DNA of 20,647 bases. Source: a virus (lineage: Duplodnaviria; Heunggongvirae; Uroviricota; Caudoviricetes). The first letter of the stretch is position 1. Every line of letters begins with the position of its first letter. Shown in pieces: positions 2,306-18,883 of the stretch. The stretch is taken from the IMG/VR virus record IMGVR_UViG_2585427793_000008; one strand, 5' to 3'. The notes beneath the pieces were generated by a model, which saw nothing but the letters and a program-made list of their open reading frames with translations, did not search any database and was not told the origin of the DNA. A program made the translations under genes and the position numbers.

Positions 2306-2382
2306 TGGCGCGTTGTACTGGATTCGAACCAGTGACCGATTGCTTAGAAGGCAATTGCTCTGTCCGGCTGAGCTAACAACGC
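2306..2382 (-). tRNA. argO: tRNA-Arg (anticodon UCU)
   Basis: Hand-folded cloverleaf: acceptor GCGTTGT/ACAACGC, D-arm GCTC/GAGC, anticodon stem ATTGC/GCAAT with loop CTTCTAA, T-arm ACTGG-TTCGAAT-CCAGT, 3-prime GCCA. Symbol by analogy to Stx-phage tRNA islands, recalled not searched. Confidence 0.9.
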
Positions 2383-2396
2383 ATAATGCAGATAAT

Positions 2397-2472
2397 GGAT
2401 TGCCATCGGGGACCCGAGCCCCACACAGCCAGTTTCGAAAGCAGGCGCTCTCTGCCGATGAGCTAATGGCGG
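2397..2472 (-). tRNA. tRNA-like sequence, Arg (UCG)-like anticodon loop, atypical; possibly degenerate
   Basis: D-arm GCTC/GAGC and loop TTTCGAA (anticodon TCG) present, but anticodon stem has 2 mismatches, acceptor stem 2 mismatches, T-loop CTCGGGT non-canonical, 3-prime end UCCA. Confidence 0.4.
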
Positions 2473-2479
2473 TATGTGA

Positions 2480-2555
2480 TGGTGGCCCTTGCTGGATTTG
2501 AACCAGCGACCTGGCGATTATGAGTCGCTCGCTCTCACCACTGAGCTAAAGGGCC
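2480..2555 (-). tRNA. ileZ: tRNA-Ile2/Met-type (anticodon CAU), ileX/ileZ-like
   Basis: Cloverleaf GGCCCTT...AAGGGCC acceptor, anticodon loop CTCATAA, T-arm GCTGG-TTCAAAT-CCAGC, 3-prime ACCA; closely resembles E. coli ileX from memory. Confidence 0.9.
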
Positions 2556-2604: not shown

Positions 2605-3654
2605 TCAAACGATTAAATCCTGAACTTCCCTGACTGTCTGCTCAAAACGTCCGGTCTCCAGCTCAACACCAATCGCACGACGCCCCAGTGCCATCGCCGC
2701 TTTTACCGTTGAACCTGAACCCATAAAAAAATCTGCAACCAGGTCTCCCGGACGACTGCTCGCGTTGATTATCTGCTGCAGCATTTCTGCCGGTTTTTCG
2801 CACGGATGTTTTCCTGGATAGTACTGCACCGGTTTATGCGTCCAGACATCGGTGTACGGAACCTGCGCCGTCACACCGAAATACCGCCGCAAATTTTTAT
2901 ATTCACTCAGCAGTTCCGTATACTGCCGGTTCAGCTCACTGTATGTGCTGACCAGCTGGTGGTGTGGCTTTTCCAGTTCCCCGCGCTGATGTTTTTCTGC
3001 CGCAACACGCGCAAACAACGCCTGCAATTTGTTGTAATCACCCTCGTTCGGTAACTGCCACTGACTGGTACCAAACCAGTGCGAAGCCATGTTTTTCTTT
3101 CCGGTGGCTTCCGCTATCTGTTTTGACGTTATTCCCAGTGATTTACGCGCATCACGAAAGTAAGAAATCAGCGGGGCCATGACGTGCTGTTTTAGCTCGC
3201 GCCCCTGTGCCACATAGCCATCATCTTTCGGGCGATACGGTCCCTGATAATGTTCTGCAAACAGAATGCGCTCTGTTGCCGGAAAATACGCCCGCAGACT
3301 TTCCTTATTGCACCCGTTCCAGCGTCCGGACGGCTTCGCCCAGATAATGTGGTTCAGCACATTAAAGCGCTCACGCATCATGATTTCGGTGTCAGATGCC
3401 AGGCGATGACCACAGAACAGGTAAAGACTTCCGGCAGGCTTCAGTCCCCGCCAGAACTGCGCCAGACACTGGTCCAGCCATTTCAGGTAATCATCGTCGC
3501 CCTTCCACTGGTTATCCCAGCCCTCGGGCTTCACTTTAAAGTATGGCGGGTCTGTGACTATCAGATCGACAGAATTTTCCGGTAAGGTCTGGATAAATTC
3601 CAGGCAATCAGCGTTGATTAACTCACAACTGGATATTTTTACAGTATTGGTCAT
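2605..3654 (-). CDS. Orphan DNA methyltransferase, beta-class (N6-adenine or N4-cytosine), 349 aa
   Basis: N-terminal SVDLIVTDPPY (motif IV) precedes C-terminal DFFMGSGST (motif I FxGxG); no adjacent restriction endonuclease gene. Confidence 0.85.
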   Translation of the reverse strand: MTNTVKISSCELINADCLEFIQTLPENSVDLIVTDPPYFKVKPEGWDNQWKGDDDYLKWLDQCLAQFWRGLKPAGSLYLFCGHRLASDTEIMMRERFNVLNHIIWAKPSGRWNGCNKESLRAYFPATERILFAEHYQGPYRPKDDGYVAQGRELKQHVMAPLISYFRDARKSLGITSKQIAEATGKKNMASHWFGTSQWQLPNEGDYNKLQALFARVAAEKHQRGELEKPHHQLVSTYSELNRQYTELLSEYKNLRRYFGVTAQVPYTDVWTHKPVQYYPGKHPCEKPAEMLQQIINASSRPGDLVADFFMGSGSTVKAAMALGRRAIGVELETGRFEQTVREVQDLIV

Positions 3655-3790
3655 AGATCAATAAGCACTTCTCTGATAGGCTCATACCGCTTTTGCGCAA
3701 AGCAGATGGGCCTGAGGTTTGCTTGTGACCCCAACGCATGAGCAGATGGCTGGCAGGTGCCGCTAACACCCACCAGCCGCCCATTACCAC

Positions 3791-3818
3791 AAATTAAAAA
3801 GCCTTCACTGCGGAAGGC
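3791..3818 (-). terminator. Intrinsic terminator-like hairpin overlapping the stop of the small ORF upstream of the methyltransferase
   Basis: Minus strand stem GCCTTC/GAAGGC (3801-3818) followed by UUUUUAAUUUG. Confidence 0.4.
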
Positions 3819-4012
3819 GTCTGTAACAACCGAACTGATAATCTGCCAGACCCGCCATAACAAGCTGAGTCAGTATTAACTGGCAGCGTTCGCGTGAAAG
3901 GTAAGTATTCTGCGCAATTTCCCCGACGGTCGCCGGTTCGGTGACGCTTAATTCATTAAACACCACTCTGGCGGTTTCGGTCATATCCTGCTGTTTTAGC
4001 ATGCCTTTTTCC
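3805..4012 (-). CDS. Small protein, 68 aa, unknown function (possible helix-turn-helix)
   Basis: ATG 4012..4010 with AGGGAAAAAGG SD region; lies between two minus-strand terminators. Confidence 0.4.
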
Positions 4013-4123
4013 CTTTTCTGGTTAACGTGACATACCAATACCTCTTGTCGAAAAAGCCAGCAAGCTGAAAGACCAGTATTCACAACAACCAGCGCGTTTA
4101 ATGTTCTGTGCCGTTTTTCAGGC

Positions 4124-4150
4124 ATAAAAAAACCCGCATAAAGCGGGTTC
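4124..4150 (-). terminator. Strong intrinsic terminator downstream of the ATPase/TOPRIM cassette (candidate tR-prime-like)
   Basis: Minus strand AACCCGC-UUUAU-GCGGGUU followed by UUUUUUUAUGCC. Confidence 0.6.
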
Positions 4151-4284
4151 TTTCAGGTGTCCATGTCTGCTATTCGCCTCGCGGTATAGCTTTGCGAAGC
4201 GTAGCTGGATTGAAACAGTTTATTGGCAAAAAATCAAGACATTTTACAAACAAAAACAATCAACTGAACAAAAAAGAAAATAAA

Positions 4285-4818
4285 TCATCTTGTTAACCTG
4301 AAATGTTTAGAAAAAGATGACTTAAAACTTGCAACAGGCTCCAATACAGTATGTAAATCTCTTGTAAACCACTTAGTTTCCTGCATGCCCATTTTCAGTA
4401 ACTTTGAAAGTTGATTGTTACAAGCAATAAAATCTCTCTTGAAATCATTTATACCCGATGTTTTTTTTGCACAGAACCCAGCAATTAGTTTTTTTACAGG
4501 AATTCCGCAACACCAGGCCAACTCCTCCTCAAAATTTCTTTTCTGCTGCAAAAGATAAACTTTATGCCCTCTGTTTTTAAGGAACTTTACATTTTCAATG
4601 AATCTTGCAGATTGCTCCACTTCATCACTATCAAAGACAATTAGTATATCACTTCCCTTCGGAATAGTAATCGCATAATTTCTTATGCTCTCTTGCCAAA
4701 AGTTTCTTTTTACAATTGATTTGGCATCAATAACTCTCTGTTGTTTCATCTTCTGAAAAAGAGAGTTTTCTGTTTCACCTTCGACAAAAATTATTCTTAT
4801 TTTAGACAACCCCGCCAT
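4285..4818 (-). CDS. Small TOPRIM-like protein, 177 aa (RloB/AbiLii- or DUF4276-like), second gene of candidate defence cassette
   Basis: N-terminal RIIFVEGETE (conserved Glu) and ILIVFDSDE (DxD) match the TOPRIM catalytic pattern; ATG overlaps ATPase stop (TGATG); AT-rich. Confidence 0.6.
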   Translation of the reverse strand: MAGLSKIRIIFVEGETENSLFQKMKQQRVIDAKSIVKRNFWQESIRNYAITIPKGSDILIVFDSDEVEQSARFIENVKFLKNRGHKVYLLQQKRNFEEELAWCCGIPVKKLIAGFCAKKTSGINDFKRDFIACNNQLSKLLKMGMQETKWFTRDLHTVLEPVASFKSSFSKHFRLTR

Positions 4819-13404: not shown

Positions 13405-13537
13405 AACAAAGCACCAATATTAACTTTATAAATCAAGAGTACATCAAGTTTAAATTAACATGCAAGTTACAAAAGGATCGAATACACTAAAATCAAGTAA
13501 AGATTTATCCTTGTAAAGAAACCCACAGGATTTGGTC
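13405..13537. promoter_or_regulatory. Immunity-region divergent promoter/operator interval (pR/pRM/OR analogue)
   Basis: AT-rich 133-bp spacer between divergent cro-like and cI; octamers AAATCAAG (about 13429 and 13490) and ACATCAAG (13441) repeated; AGGA SD before cI ATG. Confidence 0.5.
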
Positions 13538-14227
13538 ATGAAGAACGTCAAAAACACGGAAAATCGAATAGCCGCGATGCTGAAAGCAAAAGGATGGACT
13601 CAGGCTCAACTGGCCCGCAAGTTAGGTGTGAGTGCGCAATCAGTGCAGTACTGGACAACAGGAAAAACATTTCCACGGAGTGATAAGCTCGCGCATTTAT
13701 CAGAGATTAGCGGTTATCCACAATCCTGGTTCTTAGGTGAAGACTCCTCACCAACCTTTTCCTCGCAAGAGAAACACCAGACAAGAACAGATAGCGTCGT
13801 GTTTAATGTCCTTGATGTTGAGTTTAGTTGCGGTGATGGAACTCATGTCCGTGGTGACTTGATAGATGTAGTGCGCTCAATAGAACTTGATCCTGAATAT
13901 GCCCGACGTCTTGTTGGAAATCGGGCATTCAAAAATATAGAAATAGGTAACGCCAGAGGAGACAGTATGGCTCCCACAATCTCACCTGGCGACCTTCTTT
14001 TTCTTGATAAGACAGTAACTTATTTTGATGGCGATGGTATTTATGCATTTTGTTTTGATGGAGAATGCTACGTGAAAAGGCTTCAAAAAATTGGAAGCAA
14101 AATCATGGTGTTATCTGATAACCCCAATTATCAACCATGGAGCATCGAAAAAGAGGGGTTAGCTCTGCTTTATATCCAGTCTAAAGTGATCTCATCAGTA
14201 CCATTCAACATAAACAGATTTGGTTAG
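13538..14227 (+). CDS. CI-type repressor (N-terminal XRE HTH + C-terminal S24 LexA-like peptidase)
   Basis: HTH WTQAQLARKLGVSAQSVQYW; S24 motifs GDSMAPTISPGDLLFLD and YVKRL (Ser-Lys dyad). ATG at 13538; track ORF starts at upstream TTG. Confidence 0.9.
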   Translation: MKNVKNTENRIAAMLKAKGWTQAQLARKLGVSAQSVQYWTTGKTFPRSDKLAHLSEISGYPQSWFLGEDSSPTFSSQEKHQTRTDSVVFNVLDVEFSCGDGTHVRGDLIDVVRSIELDPEYARRLVGNRAFKNIEIGNARGDSMAPTISPGDLLFLDKTVTYFDGDGIYAFCFDGECYVKRLQKIGSKIMVLSDNPNYQPWSIEKEGLALLYIQSKVISSVPFNINRFG

Positions 14228-14239
14228 TCTTTGATTTTA

Positions 14240-14260
14240 ACGGGCTTTGCCCGTTTTTTT
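14240..14260 (+). terminator. Intrinsic terminator after cI
   Basis: CGGGC-TTT-GCCCG followed by T7. Confidence 0.7.
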
Positions 14261-14290
14261 CTGCCTGAAATATACGATATCAATTTTTTC

Positions 14291-14319
14291 TTGACAGGCT
14301 ATTTCCCAAAACATAATAT
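14291..14319 (+). promoter_or_regulatory. Strong sigma70 promoter (pL-like position) with flanking operator-like repeats
   Basis: TTGACA (14291-14296), 17-nt spacer, TAATAT (14314-14319); downstream CTTGATTTGATTCAA contains the reverse complement of the OR octamer AAATCAAG. Confidence 0.6.
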
Positions 14320-15973: not shown

Positions 15974-16329
15974 CACATGAACCCATTAATACATATCGTC
16001 GCCGTATAGCTGTTGCAGCACTCCATCGAATAAAACGTAAAACAGGTGGTGATCTGCTTATTGTTGACCTTCTGGATGGGAACATTACGACCATAGAAAT
16101 AACAGAACAGTTTATAAACCAGTTGCTGTTGCGCTTTGAAGACATTACCAGTGGTGAATTGGGTCGAGTGGAGGGTGAAACAGAATTCCGAACTGCATAC
16201 CAGAATGCCATCGGGATTAATCAACATACTGAATACCAGGCTGAAACCGGAAAGTTAATTATAGACAACCTTTTACAAGAGGTTATTGATTACGCGAAAG
16301 AAAAATATATCAGCGGAGGAATTAACTGA
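15970..16329 (+). CDS. Hypothetical protein, 119 aa
   Basis: ATG overlaps upstream small ORF stop; no recognisable motif. Confidence 0.5.
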   Translation: MTHEPINTYRRRIAVAALHRIKRKTGGDLLIVDLLDGNITTIEITEQFINQLLLRFEDITSGELGRVEGETEFRTAYQNAIGINQHTEYQAETGKLIIDNLLQEVIDYAKEKYISGGIN

Positions 16330-16544
16330 TGGCTAATTTATCCCCTGTATCTGTTGTGCACGAAAAAGTGCAGATCGTTATGACAATTGAAAATGGCCTG
16401 GTAACAGATGTCTGCAAAGTCCGCGATGGAGAGCTGATTGCCAGCATGGATACATTCATATGGCTGGCAGAAAGAGCGGGGTATCAGATAACAGCACCTG
16501 CTCAGGAGGAAACCAGTGACATTAACAGCAACGCGAATTCCTGA
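16329..16544 (+). CDS. Hypothetical acidic protein, 71 aa
   Basis: ATG overlaps upstream stop (TGATG); part of a coupled gene string. Confidence 0.45.
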   Translation: MANLSPVSVVHEKVQIVMTIENGLVTDVCKVRDGELIASMDTFIWLAERAGYQITAPAQEETSDINSNANS

Positions 16545-16734
16545 GTGGGTCCACCAGCAGGCGTTGCTGGTCCTGCGGCGGTACAGATGCCGACGTATAT
16601 TCCCGCATCGGATACAGCGCAACGGATATCTCAGTCTGAAGGTTAACCGTCGCTGGCGGCTGTTATCGAAAGACGACGGCCGGAACTGGGAAGTAATGAG
16701 TCATGAACGTTATTCGGGAGAAATAAAGAAATGA
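16516..16734 (+). CDS. Hypothetical basic protein, 72 aa (GTG start)
   Basis: GTG 16516 preceded by AGGAGGA SD; Arg-rich. Confidence 0.4.
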   Translation: MTLTATRIPEWVHQQALLVLRRYRCRRIFPHRIQRNGYLSLKVNRRWRLLSKDDGRNWEVMSHERYSGEIKK

Positions 16735-17123: not shown

Positions 17124-17183
17124 CGTAAACGAAATTAACCATGACGCAATTAAATAAGGCAAGCTGAATACAGCAGGAGGACC

Positions 17184-17372
17184 ATGAACATTTATTTCAG
17201 AATAGTTATATCACTGGCAATTATCGCATGTATTTACGGATTGCTCGTCCCGTTTCTGATATCAATGAAGGATACGGTAGCGGTGATTTCTGGCTTTGCA
17301 CTGACGTTTCTAACCCCGCCATGTATTTATACCATTTATAAGGGGCTTTCTTTCACTAAGGATAAAAGATGA
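17184..17372 (+). CDS. Small membrane protein, 62 aa, two predicted TM helices
   Basis: AGGAGG SD; hydrophobic IVISLAIIACIYGLLVPFLI and AVISGFALTFLTPPCIY; stop overlaps next gene start. Confidence 0.5.
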   Translation: MNIYFRIVISLAIIACIYGLLVPFLISMKDTVAVISGFALTFLTPPCIYTIYKGLSFTKDKR

Positions 17373-18196
17373 AAAAAATTATTTTTTCTTTAGCCATTGT
17401 TCTGCCTGCCATTGGCCTTGTCGGTTGTGATCGTGTTGAGCCTGGTAATGTGGGCATCAAAGTCAACAAACTTGGCGACGACAAAGGCGTCGGTGAAGTG
17501 GTCGGTGTTGGTCGCTACTGGACAGGCTGGAACACTGAAGTTTATATCTTCCCGACCTTTAAGCAGATGAAGACCTACGATGATCCATTCAGTTTCCAGA
17601 TGAGCGATGGAACAACCATTGGTTACCACATCGGAGTAGCCTACAAGGTTGATCCATCCAAAGTTACCACAGTCTTTCAGACCTACCGCAAAGGCGTGGA
17701 CGACATTACCGACACCGACCTGCGCCAGAAGATAGCCGACGCACTCAACCGACTGGCCAGCAAAATGACCACCGACAAATTTATCGACGGCGGCAAGTCT
17801 GAGCTGCTGGATGCAGCTCTTAAAGACATTCAGGAAGAAATGACGCCCATCGGTATTCAGGTAATAAGCCTCTCATATGTGGGTAAGCCGGAATACCCGC
17901 CTACTGTTATCGACAGCATTAATGCCAAAGTCACGGCGAACCAGAAAACTCTGCAACGCGAGCAGGAAGTAAAACAGCGCGAAGCGGAAGCCAACATGTT
18001 GCGCGCGGAAGCTGCCGGACAGGCTGATGCGATTCGCACAAAAGCCCAGGCTGAAGCCGATGCTATTCGTTTACGCGGTGAAGCTCTGCGTCAGAACCCC
18101 GGTGTTATGGAGCTGGAAGCCATCAATAAATGGAACGGCACGCTGCCGCAATACATGACCAGCGGTGCCAATACACCATTTATCCAGGTTAAATAA
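17369..18196 (+). CDS. SPFH/band-7 (prohibitin-like) domain lipoprotein, 275 aa
   Basis: Signal peptide with lipobox AIGLVGC; C-terminal Ala/Glu-rich coiled coil and RQNPGVMELEAI resemble prohibitin/HflK family C-termini. Confidence 0.75.
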   Translation: MKKIIFSLAIVLPAIGLVGCDRVEPGNVGIKVNKLGDDKGVGEVVGVGRYWTGWNTEVYIFPTFKQMKTYDDPFSFQMSDGTTIGYHIGVAYKVDPSKVTTVFQTYRKGVDDITDTDLRQKIADALNRLASKMTTDKFIDGGKSELLDAALKDIQEEMTPIGIQVISLSYVGKPEYPPTVIDSINAKVTANQKTLQREQEVKQREAEANMLRAEAAGQADAIRTKAQAEADAIRLRGEALRQNPGVMELEAINKWNGTLPQYMTSGANTPFIQVK

Positions 18197-18237: not shown

Positions 18238-18609
18238 ATGAACACTCATAATACTCAACCGCAAATAATGAACTATGACCCAAATCTGACGTCATGCGGA
18301 CGCATGGCGAAACAAACCATTCGATTAACTTTCGGGCTATGGGAATACCGCGAAACATTCGAAGTCACTGTTGGTGGCAACCTGACCGGACTCGATGTTA
18401 TCAGTTGCGCTATTGAAAGCCTGTACGCAACACTGCCTTATGAAGAAGTCGAGGATGAGCGTACAGGGGAAACAGATATCATGGCCACCATTAATATTAG
18501 CGAACTGATATGTCAGGATGAAGACCTGTCCGGAGAACTCTGGCTTGCCGGGATGCTTATCTCAGCAGAAATTATCAGTATTGAACCCGCTACAAACATA
18601 CGGCTCTGA
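18238..18609 (+). CDS. Hypothetical acidic protein, 123 aa
   Basis: AAGGGA SD; Glu/Asp-rich C-terminal half. Confidence 0.45.
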   Translation: MNTHNTQPQIMNYDPNLTSCGRMAKQTIRLTFGLWEYRETFEVTVGGNLTGLDVISCAIESLYATLPYEEVEDERTGETDIMATINISELICQDEDLSGELWLAGMLISAEIISIEPATNIRL

Positions 18610-18640
18610 AGTTCTCACTATTCAGAGAGCAGGAGAAAAA

Positions 18641-18883
18641 ATGTTCGCTTTGATTAATCAGGGACAACTGTATACCGACAGTGCCGGTTACCCGGTAATA
18701 ATTATTCGCTGCATAAACAACACTGTGTTGTACAGAAGAATTGATGGGCGAACACAGTCAGTAAAAATAAACGATTTCAATGAACTGTTTGAACGGATTG
18801 ATCACCAGGAATACCGACAAATTCTGGCAGAAACAGAGCAGGAAGCTCATCTGAAAAAATTACGGGCCATGAAAAGGAAGTAA
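18641..18883 (+). CDS. Hypothetical protein, 80 aa
   Basis: ATG 18641 with AGGAG SD; track ORF 18518..18883 extends upstream and overlaps the previous gene. Confidence 0.45.
   Translation: MFALINQGQLYTDSAGYPVIIIRCINNTVLYRRIDGRTQSVKINDFNELFERIDHQEYRQILAETEQEAHLKKLRAMKRK

What the first reader, a model, noticed from the sequence alone, without database searches (positions are those of the whole stretch)
17184..18196. Small two-TM membrane protein translationally coupled to an SPFH/band-7 lipoprotein
SPFH (prohibitin/stomatin-like) proteins usually pair with a small membrane partner and organise membrane microdomains. Their presence as a coupled pair in the early-left accessory region of a prophage is unusual and suggests a membrane-acting function such as superinfection exclusion or abortive infection.
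Basis: partly seen in the sequence, partly recalled or inferred. Interest (0 to 1): 0.55.

Follow-up and report, generated by a model that had tools for sequence, protein, structure and literature searches.

The report
Phage SPFH lipoprotein with two-helix membrane partner
The two overlapping genes are real: a tiny two-helix membrane protein and a lipid-anchored SPFH (prohibitin/HflK-like) scaffold protein that travel together as a mobile accessory cassette in many temperate and strictly lytic phages, so the pair is common rather than unusual and its function has not been tested.

Summary
Observation confirmed. ORF A (17184-17372, 62 aa, helical hairpin) overlaps by ATGA with ORF B (17369-18196, 275 aa), which has a lipobox (LVG|C-D), a Pfam Band_7 match (2.9e-31) and a full-length predicted fold like HflK/C, prohibitin and erlin. 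ORF A is a real gene: it is intact in 80/80 related loci, with pN/pS 0.24 in frame against about 1.5 off frame.

The partner is not NfeD. It belongs to an unnamed small-protein family (616 cluster representatives, 45-106 aa) with an invariant P-x-L-I-S…D-T-x-x-V-x-x-G turn motif.

The pair is not unusual. It occurs in about 10% of complete E. coli genomes and in phiP27-, P2-, P1- and SSU5-like temperate phages. It also occurs in virulent N4-like, Vi01-like, ~145-kb and crAss-like phages.

It is accessory, not core. It is absent from a sister prophage at the same att site, decayed in another, and swapped with tciABC in P1.

No PADLOC hit and no experimental function were found.

Best reading: a two-subunit, periplasm-facing SPFH scaffold on the inner membrane that phages use during infection. 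Superinfection exclusion or membrane protection is my leading guess (about 0.3). Abortive infection is unlikely. I class it as a new variant of a known kind, of moderate interest.

The parts
17175..17180 (+). Shine-Dalgarno AGGAGG, 3 nt upstream of the small ORF start
   Evidence: read directly from the sequence
17184..17372 (+). small membrane partner gene (62 aa): helical hairpin, predicted N-in/C-in, no Pfam family, phrog_1130
   Evidence: ORF list; phrog_1130 3.6e-23; purifying selection and 80/80 intact copies; AF2 hairpin; 616 family representatives
17250..17294 (+). codons 23-37 (P-F-L-I-S-M-K-D-T-V-A-V-I-S-G): the conserved turn motif at the predicted periplasmic end of the hairpin
   Evidence: Across 149 family representatives P23 is 100%, L25 81%, I26 60%, S27 98%, V34 84% and G37 96%. 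The same stretch is the one hhalign aligns with crAss-phage partners, E 4.9e-5
17358..17362 (+). AAGGA ribosome-binding site for the SPFH gene, inside the end of the small ORF
   Evidence: read directly from the sequence
17369..17372 (+). ATGA: the SPFH start codon overlaps the partner's stop codon (translational coupling signature)
   Evidence: sequence; overlaps of 4, 11 or 20 nt recur in most lineages
17369..18196 (+). SPFH/Band_7 lipoprotein gene (275 aa)
   Evidence: Pfam Band_7 2.9e-31; phrog_200; AF2 pLDDT 78; Foldseek top hits HflK, erlin, prohibitin, HflC, stomatin
17369..17428 (+). lipoprotein signal peptide (aa 1-19) and lipobox Cys20; Asp21 follows at position +2
   Evidence: sequence; Cys invariant in A5; C20 and D21 at least 90% conserved in the close clade A2
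17432..17992 (+). SPFH (Band_7) domain, aa 22-208
   Evidence: Pfam envelope; beta-sheet plus helices in the AF2 model
17900..18094 (+). long Ala/Glu-rich helix, aa 178-242; corresponds to the coiled-coil wall helix of SPFH cages
   Evidence: AF2 secondary structure H178-242; aligned with HflK 180-306 by sequence
18122..18148 (+). C-terminal motif I-N-K-W-N-G-T-L-P (aa 252-260), conserved across phage SPFH lipoproteins
   Evidence: K254, W255, G257 and P260 at least 90% conserved in A5; low pLDDT in the monomer model, as expected if this segment only orders in an oligomer (inference)

Best explanation
The two genes encode the two subunits of a phage-borne SPFH membrane scaffold.

Shown:
- ORF B is a lipoprotein-type SPFH protein whose whole predicted fold (SPFH domain, 65-residue helix, conserved C-terminal tail) matches the cage-forming proteins HflK/C, prohibitin, erlin and stomatin.
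- ORF A is a conserved 2-helix hairpin that is almost always encoded immediately upstream, usually with overlapping stop and start codons.
- The pair moves as a cassette between unrelated phage types.
- It is dispensable for prophage maintenance.

Inferred:
- After signal peptidase II processing, the Asp at +2 keeps the lipoprotein in the inner membrane, with its SPFH domain facing the periplasm, the same side as HflK/C.
- It oligomerises into a ring or dome.
- The hairpin, made in roughly equal amounts through translational coupling, is the membrane-spanning subunit. It docks through its invariant P-x-L-I-S...D-T-x-x-V-x-x-G periplasmic turn and stands in for the N-terminal TM helix that cellular SPFH proteins carry.

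Function (guess): the module is made with early genes and changes the inner membrane of the infected or induced cell for the phage's benefit. The most likely effect is to shield that membrane against a second hit, meaning entry of DNA from superinfecting phages or premature depolarisation and lysis. This is a superinfection-exclusion / membrane-protection role, not a suicide system.

My likelihoods: identity and pairing about 0.9; cage-with-hairpin assembly about 0.6; exclusion/protection function about 0.3.
For: Identity: Band_7 2.9e-31; Foldseek E 7e-14 to 1e-11, probability 1.00, to HflK 7vhq_E, erlin1/2, PHB1/2 and HflC over about 260-315 aligned columns.

Lipoprotein: lipobox with an invariant Cys; Asp+2 at least 90% conserved in the close clade.

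Obligate pairing:
- The partner is found upstream of the SPFH gene in phiP27, P88 (P2-like), RCS47 (P1-like), PhiR41_1 (a 108-kb phage I take to be SSU5-like), KpCHEMY26 (N4-like), phiE125, BcepF1, PhiSH19 (Vi01-like) and crAss-like phages.
- Starting instead from 6 divergent partner proteins, the next gene (or the next but one) is Band_7 in every place where the contig reaches that far.
- 17 of 26 SPFH clusters have an upstream small ORF with at least 2 TM, against 7 of 114 control ORFs, Fisher p 2e-10.

Specific docking site: the motif is invariant or nearly so across 149 representatives and lies at the predicted turn.

Phage-side function: relatives are in virulent phages. These are Schitoviridae with 79% mature identity, plus Kayvirus, Ackermannviridae, Bruynoghevirus and crAss. 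The pair lies at the extreme left end of the records of Arefeen1 and BcepF1.

Conflict-like signature: the mature SPFH is 95-97% identical between this prophage and the P2- and P1-like copies, while the partner is only 21-27% identical.

Accessory status.
Against: - No experiment on this family's role in phage infection was found in the paper library. The papers that mention phage SPFH genes only speculate (PMC7150955, PMC10269572, PMC13239085).
- Oligomerisation and partner contact are not modelled; only monomers could be predicted.
- Inner-membrane retention is uncertain. I do not know how Arg at +3 affects the Asp+2 signal. Homologues in other enterobacterial phages have C-E-R, C-G-G or C-N-K, which by the E. 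coli rule would go to the outer membrane. The Pasteurella prophage SPFH protein PM0222 was found in outer-membrane vesicles (PMC9872710).
- No own promoter or terminator was found around the pair, so expression in the lysogen is unknown.
- The broad SPFH family also occurs in Gram-positive and archaeal viruses with different or no recognisable partners. This argues for a more general membrane role than exclusion of particular phages.
- The mismatch between partner divergence and scaffold conservation could simply reflect recombination inside the conserved SPFH gene.
Confidence: 0.4

Rival explanations
1. FtsH modulator. The phage SPFH lipoprotein acts like, or competes with, host HflK/C on the periplasmic side of the inner membrane. 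It would change FtsH access to substrates, such as CII/CIII-like regulators or membrane proteins, and so bias lysis-lysogeny or protein turnover.
For: The best sequence match in the PDB is HflK (2.2e-4) and the best structural match is HflK 7vhq_E. NCBIfam's only hits are HflC and HflK. The predicted topology is the same (extracytoplasmic). The gene sits in the regulatory/early-left arm of a temperate phage. One paper offers the same idea for phage CSP3 (PMC10269572).
Against: HflK/HflC model scores are 20-26 bits against cut-offs of 134-660, and identity to HflK/C is only 17%. The family is abundant in strictly lytic phages and in haloarchaeal viruses. By general knowledge, archaeal hosts lack FtsH. 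Nothing explains the dedicated hairpin partner.
Confidence: 0.2
2. Lysis-timing or membrane-energetics module. The scaffold stabilises the energised membrane, or corrals holin-like proteins (possibly the hairpin itself), so that lysis is not triggered early.
For: The partner has the shape of a class II holin: about 60-70 aa, two TM, basic C-terminus. In Kayvirus the SPFH gene mbpS and a holin-like 1-TM gene mbpV lie directly after the endolysin gene (PMC7150955). Cellular SPFH proteins are linked to membrane-stress tolerance (titles and abstracts of PMC10434171 and bioRxiv 10.64898/2026.02.06.704340, listed).
Against: In this prophage the pair is about 12 kb from the holin/endolysin genes, in the opposite transcription arm. 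No holin family hit appears in Pfam even at E up to 1. phiP27 has its own complete lysis set, including a spanin (PMC6139136).
Confidence: 0.15
3. Host-protective abortive-infection or defence system. The hairpin is a pore-forming effector held in check by the SPFH cage and released when another phage infects.
For: The cassette is a small membrane protein plus a regulator-like partner in an accessory region. A ParE-like toxin gene lies two genes upstream. In P1-like phages it swaps with tciABC.
Against: No PADLOC hit for either protein. Homologous pairs occur in strictly virulent phages, which gain nothing from killing their own host cell early. The pair decays without consequence in a resident prophage.
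Confidence: 0.07
4. Lysogenic-conversion factor for the animal host: an exposed or vesicle-borne lipoprotein that stimulates TLR2, as reported for the prophage SPFH protein PM0222 of Pasteurella multocida.
For: PM0222 is a prophage-encoded HflK/C-like protein of 25-35 kDa, found in OMVs. It activates TLR1/2, and its deletion attenuates virulence in mice (PMC9872710). The pair here is carried by Stx-converting phages.
Against: Homology of PM0222 to this protein could not be tested because no sequence was available. The family is present in lytic, environmental, plant-pathogen and archaeal viruses. By general knowledge, any triacylated lipoprotein stimulates TLR2. This reading does not explain the conserved partner.
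Confidence: 0.05

Closest known systems
HflK/HflC (E. coli SPFH cage around FtsH; PDB 7vhq, 7wi3, 9cz2)
   Same: Band_7 domain, long wall helix, conserved C-terminal tail and extracytoplasmic orientation; best sequence and fold matches.
   Different: About 17% identity and far below the HflK/HflC family cut-offs. Anchored by a lipid rather than an N-terminal TM helix. One SPFH gene rather than a K/C pair. Encoded by phages, with a dedicated 2-TM partner and no evidence of FtsH binding.
SPFH-NfeD operons (for example QmcA-YbbJ, PDB 8z5g; stomatin PH1511-PH1510)
   Same: An SPFH gene is co-transcribed with a small membrane protein gene. QmcA is among the fold matches (2.3e-8).
   Different: The partner lacks the NfeD OB-fold domain entirely: no PF01957 hit, and family members are 45-106 aa. 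Gene order here is partner first. The SPFH domain is predicted to be periplasmic, whereas by general knowledge QmcA faces the cytoplasm.
Prohibitin and erlin rings (PDB 8rrh, 9o9z, 9o9u)
   Same: Full-length fold match, E about 1e-13. Some phage homologues are annotated 'prohibitin family protein'.
   Different: These are eukaryotic organellar hetero-oligomers with TM anchors; only the architecture is shared.
Phage SPFH genes noted in the literature: Kayvirus MbpS/MbpV, Vi01-like gp200, Burkholderia CSP3 orf75, Gibbsiella phage GIB1
   Same: Kayvirus and the Vi01-like phages are in the same broad family by tblastn. The papers describe SPFH (lipo)proteins of unknown role, and Kayvirus has a small TM gene directly upstream (PMC7150955, PMC10892097, PMC10269572, PMC13239085).
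   Different: These papers discuss the SPFH gene alone and only speculate (Sec-assisted export, adsorption/entry, lysogeny control). None that I read describes a conserved partner family.
Small inner-membrane superinfection-exclusion proteins (T4 Imm, P22 SieA, HK97 gp15), from general knowledge
   Same: Small inner-membrane proteins found in both temperate and virulent phages, non-essential; some, such as T4 Imm, are made early.
   Different: No sequence relationship: no Imm family appears among the Pfam hits listed for nine partners at E up to 1. None of those systems uses an SPFH scaffold. Exclusion by this pair is untested.
PM0222 (Pmorf0222) of a Pasteurella multocida prophage
   Same: A prophage-encoded HflK/C-like protein of similar size, and the only prophage or phage SPFH protein with experimental data that I found (PMC9872710).
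   Different: It was studied as a virulence factor and TLR1/2 agonist, not for any phage-related role. Sequence relationship to this protein was not tested.

Membership tests
SPFH / Band 7 superfamily (Pfam PF01145) | Band_7 domain above Pfam's gathering score | tested here: met
   109.3 bits against a cut-off of 23.6, E 2.9e-31, profile positions 2-176 of 176
SPFH / Band 7 superfamily (Pfam PF01145) | full architecture of cage-forming members: SPFH domain, long coiled-coil helix, C-terminal tail | tested here: met
   AF2 model with strands 20-94, helices, and H178-242. Foldseek probability 1.00 to HflK, HflC, PHB1/2, erlin1/2, stomatin and flotillin over about 250-315 columns
SPFH / Band 7 superfamily (Pfam PF01145) | assembly into a membrane-attached ring or cage | not testable with these tools
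   only monomer prediction is available; the C-terminal 30 residues have pLDDT below 50 in the monomer
HflK / HflC (NCBIfam TIGR01933, TIGR01932, NF008181, NF008259) | score above the equivalog cut-off | tested here: not met
   20-26 bits against cut-offs of 134-660
SPFH-NfeD operon | partner carries the NfeD C-terminal OB-fold domain (PF01957) | tested here: not met
   No NfeD hit for any of 9 partners at E up to 1. The partner is 62 aa and all helical. The top 150 family representatives are 45-106 aa
SPFH-NfeD operon | SPFH gene and small membrane-protein gene adjacent and co-oriented | tested here: met
   ATGA overlap; adjacency conserved across lineages
Bacterial lipoprotein (signal peptidase II substrate) | positively charged n-region, hydrophobic h-region and lipobox [LVI][ASTVI][GAS]C | tested here: met
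   MKK-IIFSLAIVLPAIG-LVGC; Cys invariant in 12 divergent homologues
Bacterial lipoprotein (signal peptidase II substrate) | inner-membrane retention signal (Asp at +2 in E. coli) | tested here: inconclusive
   Asp21 is present and at least 90% conserved in the close clade. The effect of Arg at +3 is unknown to me, and other enterobacterial-phage homologues lack Asp+2. Localisation was not measured
Known anti-phage defence systems (PADLOC-DB v2) | match to any defence-protein model | tested here: not met
   0 families for either protein at E up to 0.1
Two-component spanin | i-spanin with one TM and a periplasmic coiled coil; small outer-membrane lipoprotein o-spanin; located in the lysis cassette | tested here: not met
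   The partner is a 2-TM hairpin with a 3-residue turn. The lipoprotein is 255 aa when mature, with Asp+2. The pair is in the early-left arm. phiP27's own spanin has only 62 periplasmic residues in total (PMC6139136)
Class II holin | small 2-TM N-in/C-in protein with a charged C-terminus, encoded next to an endolysin | tested here: inconclusive
   The size and predicted topology fit. There is no holin Pfam hit, and the gene is not near the endolysin in this prophage
PHROG phrog_200 / phrog_1130 | profile match | tested here: met
   phrog_200 'lipoprotein' 9e-115; phrog_1130 'membrane protein' 3.6e-23

The most novel reading that the evidence does not exclude
The hairpin plus SPFH lipoprotein would be an ancient, widely shared viral 'membrane cage' system, found from crAss-like phages of Bacteroidota to N4-, Vi01-, P1-, P2- and lambda-type phages of Proteobacteria. 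In it the hairpin is the transmembrane subunit of a lipid-anchored SPFH dome. The dome would seal off patches of the infected cell's inner membrane, blocking genome entry by competing phages or membrane-targeting host defences. That would give phage SPFH proteins their first defined function and provide a minimal two-gene model for how SPFH cages work.
Probability: 0.25. Interest if true: 0.7.

Novelty: new variant of a known kind. Interest (0 to 1): 0.4.

Why it matters
SPFH proteins (stomatin, prohibitin, flotillin, HflK/C) occur in all domains of life, yet what most bacterial members do is still unclear.

Phages have kept a stripped-down version: one lipid-anchored SPFH protein plus one ~60-residue hairpin with a sharply conserved turn motif. 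They move it between very different genomes, lytic ones included.

If the hairpin really is the membrane subunit of the cage, this is the smallest natural SPFH system available for structural and genetic work. It would also replace the usual NfeD partner with something new.

If it controls superinfection or membrane integrity, it matters for phage competition, for Stx-phage and P1-type phage-plasmid biology in E. coli, and for the design of therapeutic phages (Kayvirus, N4-like and Vi01-like phages carry relatives).

On the practical side, the partner gene is missed in several deposited annotations (phiP27, RCS47, PhiSH19). The SPFH gene is still often labelled 'serine protease', which nothing here supports: its only Pfam match is the non-catalytic Band_7 domain.

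Tried and rejected
- **NfeD partner:** rejected. No PF01957 hit, and the proteins are too short.
- **Known defence system:** no PADLOC hit.
- **Spanin:** rejected on topology, size and location, and because phiP27 has its own spanin.
- **'Superinfection exclusion protein' next to the SPFH gene in PhiSH19:** this looked like a lead. The annotated 106-aa protein has no hydrophobic stretch in its sequence. The true neighbour is an unannotated 72-aa 2-TM ORF that overlaps the SPFH start.
- **Own promoter or terminator (moron test):** nothing convincing around the pair in the window or in RCS47, so expression in the lysogen stays open.
- **'Serine protease' annotation** in older records: a Pfam scan of the protein found only Band_7.
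- **Survey of one genome per species:** gave only 12 loci, because the search patterns were narrow. This says little about prevalence.
- **Word-index protein searches:** returned mostly close relatives. Diversity came from tblastn against phages, IMG/VR scans seeded with distant homologues and the exhaustive profile search.
- **Literature:** seven full-text searches found no experimental work on the phage SPFH pair. The PhageMaP preprint does not mention SPFH.
- **PM0222:** its homology to this protein could not be checked, because no sequence was held.
Full report
**What is there**

The window is a phiP27-like prophage of E. coli. It matches a prophage of strain ATCC 43886 integrated at yecE (DUF72), 99.9% over the pair. 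Phage phiP27 and a set of Stx2-converting phages carry the same segment at 90-93% identity.

On the + strand, a CI-type repressor lies at 13532-14227 (HTH_3 + Peptidase_S24), followed by a terminator-like hairpin. After it comes a run of small genes that ends in excisionase and integrase. The two genes of the finding sit in that run.

- ORF A is 17184-17372 (62 aa), preceded by AGGAGG.
- ORF B is 17369-18196 (275 aa).
- The two share ATGA, so the stop of A overlaps the start of B.

**ORF B is an SPFH lipoprotein**

- Pfam Band_7 matches at 2.9e-31 over the whole profile, and PHROG phrog_200 'lipoprotein' at 9e-115.
- The N-terminus is a textbook lipoprotein signal (MKK, hydrophobic core, L-V-G-C). 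The Cys is invariant in 12 phage homologues down to 24% identity.
- The AlphaFold2 model (pLDDT 78) shows the SPFH sheet and helices, then a single 65-residue helix (178-242), then a poorly ordered but highly conserved tail with K-W-N-G-x-L-P.
- Foldseek against the PDB puts full-length HflK, erlin1/2, prohibitin 1/2, HflC and stomatin at the top (E 7e-14 to 1e-10, probability 1.00), with flotillin, QmcA and the major vault protein below. All of these build rings or cages on membranes.
- By sequence the protein is not HflK or HflC: 20-26 bits against cut-offs of 134-660.
- The old label 'serine protease' in several records has no support; a Pfam scan of the protein finds only Band_7.

**ORF A is a real gene and a specific partner**

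- It is intact in 80 of 80 related viral contigs (29 distinct DNA sequences). pN/pS is 0.24 in frame against about 1.5 in the other frames, and most variation is at third codon positions.
- AlphaFold2 predicts a helical hairpin: helix 3-27, a three-residue turn, helix 31-60. Lys/Arg at both ends suggest N-in/C-in. That topology is inferred from the positive-inside rule.
- It has no Pfam family and in particular no NfeD domain.
- An exhaustive profile search finds 616 cluster representatives at E up to 1e-3. The best 150 are all 45-106 aa and match end to end.
- Across them the signature is sharp: Y4 95%, G19 89%, P23 100%, L25 81%, S27 98%, V34 84%, G37 96%, P45 78%. These residues bracket the predicted turn.

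**The pairing is conserved far beyond this prophage**

A homologous hairpin gene lies directly upstream of an SPFH lipoprotein gene, typically with a 4-nt overlap, in many phage types:

- P88 (P2-like), RCS47 and other P1-like phage-plasmids (there unannotated), and PhiR41_1, a 108-kb phage that I take to be SSU5-like.
- The virulent N4-like KpCHEMY26.
- Burkholderia phiE125 and BcepF1.

In ~145-kb Klebsiella/Salmonella phages the hairpin is one gene further upstream, with a 51-54-aa ORF between.

In Vi01-like PhiSH19, an unannotated 72-aa 2-TM ORF overlaps the SPFH start.

crAss-like and other Bacteroidota phages have a 59-95-aa 2-TM ORF overlapping the SPFH start by 4-11 nt. Their profile aligns with the proteobacterial one exactly on the turn motif (hhalign E 4.9e-5, probability 68%). 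I treat this as probable but not proven homology.

Going the other way, six look-ups that started from divergent hairpin proteins found a Band_7 gene as the next gene, or the next but one, in every place where the contig reaches that far.

In a mechanical count, 17 of 26 SPFH clusters have an upstream small ORF with at least 2 TM, against 7 of 114 control ORFs (p = 2e-10).

More distant SPFH genes show other arrangements:

- Kayvirus and Bruynoghevirus have a 1-TM neighbour upstream, and haloviruses have one downstream.
- An Erwinia Kolesnikvirus phage (vEam_PM_6) has no TM neighbour.

**How common, and in what kind of phage**

- SPFH relatives occur in 571 of 5426 complete E. coli genomes: 418 places on chromosomes and 241 on plasmids.
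- They occur in 784 of 50,697 phage records.
- Going by genus, most of those are lytic phages: Staphylococcus 265, Pseudomonas 76, Erwinia 48, Klebsiella 45, Enterococcus 34, Caulobacter 26, plus haloarchaeal viruses.
- Even close relatives are in strictly virulent Schitoviridae: the mature protein is 79% identical and the partner 39%.
- In Arefeen1 and BcepF1 the pair lies at the extreme left end of the genome record.

A function that serves only the lysogen is hard to reconcile with this distribution.

**Accessory and mobile**

- A sister prophage at the same yecE site has the same repressor, DUF5406, DUF4222, xis and int frame but other genes in place of the pair.
- A 98.5%-identical prophage keeps the hairpin gene but has a ~500-nt deletion in the SPFH gene.
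- In P1-like phages the pair sits between upl and a tRNA/ban, exactly where reference P1 carries tciA-tciB-tciC.
- The mature SPFH protein is 95-97% identical between this prophage and the P2- and P1-like copies. Their hairpins are only 21-27% identical, and the DNA match to those copies begins within the signal-peptide codons. The cassette is therefore mosaic, with a near-constant scaffold and swappable partners that keep only the turn motif.

**Mechanism**

Shown:
- an SPFH lipoprotein with cage-type architecture;
- a conserved, co-translated hairpin partner;
- cassette mobility and dispensability.

Inferred:
- Asp at +2 (at least 90% conserved in the close clade) retains the lipoprotein in the inner membrane, facing the periplasm as HflK/C does.
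- It oligomerises.
- The hairpin provides the membrane-spanning element that cellular SPFH proteins carry as an N-terminal helix, and docks through its periplasmic turn.

For the biological effect I commit, at about 0.3, to protection of the infected cell's inner membrane against a second hit, that is, superinfection exclusion or prevention of premature depolarisation. The reasons are:
- its presence in both lytic and temperate phages;
- its non-essential status;
- its membrane location;
- the constant-scaffold, variable-partner pattern;
- its positions at the left ends of two phage records and in the early-left arm here, which I take as early regions.

Weak points:
- The localisation rule is uncertain. 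The effect of +3 Arg is unknown to me, and other enterobacterial-phage homologues lack Asp+2.
- No promoter was found for the pair.
- No oligomer model could be made.
- No experiment exists on this family's role in infection.

**Rivals**

- An HflK/C-like modulator of FtsH (0.2) fits the best structural match and the temperate context. It does not fit lytic and archaeal carriers or the dedicated partner.
- A lysis-timing or membrane-energetics role (0.15) fits the holin-like shape of the partner and the Kayvirus gene order (PMC7150955). It does not fit the position in this prophage.
- Abortive infection (0.07) is disfavoured by the virulent carriers and by the absence of PADLOC hits.
- A TLR2-stimulating conversion factor like PM0222 of Pasteurella (PMC9872710) is possible in pathogens (0.05) but cannot explain the family.
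- A spanin is excluded.

**Comparison and novelty**

The pair works like an SPFH-partner operon, but it fails the defining NfeD test, and it is not HflK/C.

The genes themselves are already annotated (RefSeq, PHROGs). Phage SPFH genes have been remarked on repeatedly without data (PMC7150955, PMC10269572, PMC13239085, PMC1524935, PMC3220722).

I found no description of the conserved hairpin family, its motif or its near-obligate coupling to lipoprotein-type SPFH genes across phage lineages. The caveat is that my search covers only the open-access library.

I therefore rate it a new variant of a known kind. The instance in this window is ordinary, while the module it belongs to is under-studied. 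Interest is 0.4.

Noticed in passing
window 16516-16734 (+), with 16329-16544 (+) overlapping its start: A 72-aa ORF two genes upstream of the pair matches Pfam ParE_like (PF24732) at 7.4e-18, and RefSeq calls it a 'ParE family toxin-like protein'. The 71-aa ORF that overlaps its start by 29 nt could be its antitoxin. It has only a weak anti-repressor PHROG hit.
   Followed up: partly
L004 (RCS47) 3039-4300 versus reference P1 NC_005856 69499-71831: In P1-like phages the hairpin + SPFH pair occupies the same slot (between upl and a tRNA/ban) that reference P1 and P7 fill with tciA-tciB-tciC (TerB-like / DUF3927). The two are alternative cargo at one variable locus. The closely matching prophage in strain ATCC 43886 carries TerB and DUF3927 genes elsewhere, near its lysis genes.
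   Followed up: partly
L096-L099, about 4230-4805 (P1-like plasmid contigs): A gene with a Tad2-like (PF11195, anti-Thoeris sponge family) hit lies about 700 nt downstream of the SPFH gene in P1-like plasmids. This hints that the locus collects conflict-related cargo.
   Followed up: no
L002 4006-4194 (phiP27); L004 3231-3467 (RCS47); L113 1932-2150 minus strand (PhiSH19): The hairpin partner gene is missing from the deposited annotation of these phages. In PhiSH19 the neighbouring 106-aa protein annotated 'superinfection exclusion protein' has no hydrophobic stretch in its sequence.
   Followed up: yes
window 17417 onward compared with P88, P1-like and RCS47: DNA identity to P2- and P1-like copies (87-90%) begins within the signal-peptide codons. 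The mature SPFH is 95-97% identical while the partner is 21-27% identical and the signal peptide 33-63% identical. This points to a recombination boundary at the signal peptide.
   Followed up: partly
L245 1792-2301 (E. coli UTME-13 prophage): A 98.5%-identical prophage has a ~500-nt internal deletion that makes the SPFH gene a pseudogene, while the small partner gene is kept (annotated there as 59 aa).
   Followed up: yes
L087 1332-1496; L102 2425-2589; L109 2701-2856: In ~145-kb Klebsiella/Salmonella phages a conserved 51-54-aa soluble ORF is inserted between the hairpin gene and the SPFH gene. It may be a third component.
   Followed up: no
L091 2297-2662 and the other crAss-like loci among L155-L232: In several crAss-like clusters a second small membrane protein (93-121 aa, 2-3 TM) starts within about 5 nt of the SPFH stop codon. 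In most of them it comes in addition to the upstream hairpin.
   Followed up: no
window 2306-2555 (-): A cluster of three tRNA genes: Arg-TCT, Arg-TCG and a CAT-anticodon tRNA that ARAGORN calls Met but RefSeq annotates as Ile in the closely matching prophage. It lies next to a DNA methyltransferase gene.
   Followed up: no
window 14239-14319 (+): A strong terminator-like hairpin (7-bp stem, T-run) lies directly after the CI-like repressor gene. It is followed by the best promoter-like site of the region (TTGACA-17-TAATAT), ahead of a second HTH gene. This may be where the transcript that reaches the pair begins.
   Followed up: no
window 18238-18883 (+): DUF5406 (2.9e-22) and DUF4222 (1.2e-15) genes follow the pair. 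Unlike the pair, they are kept in the sister prophage that lacks it.
   Followed up: partly
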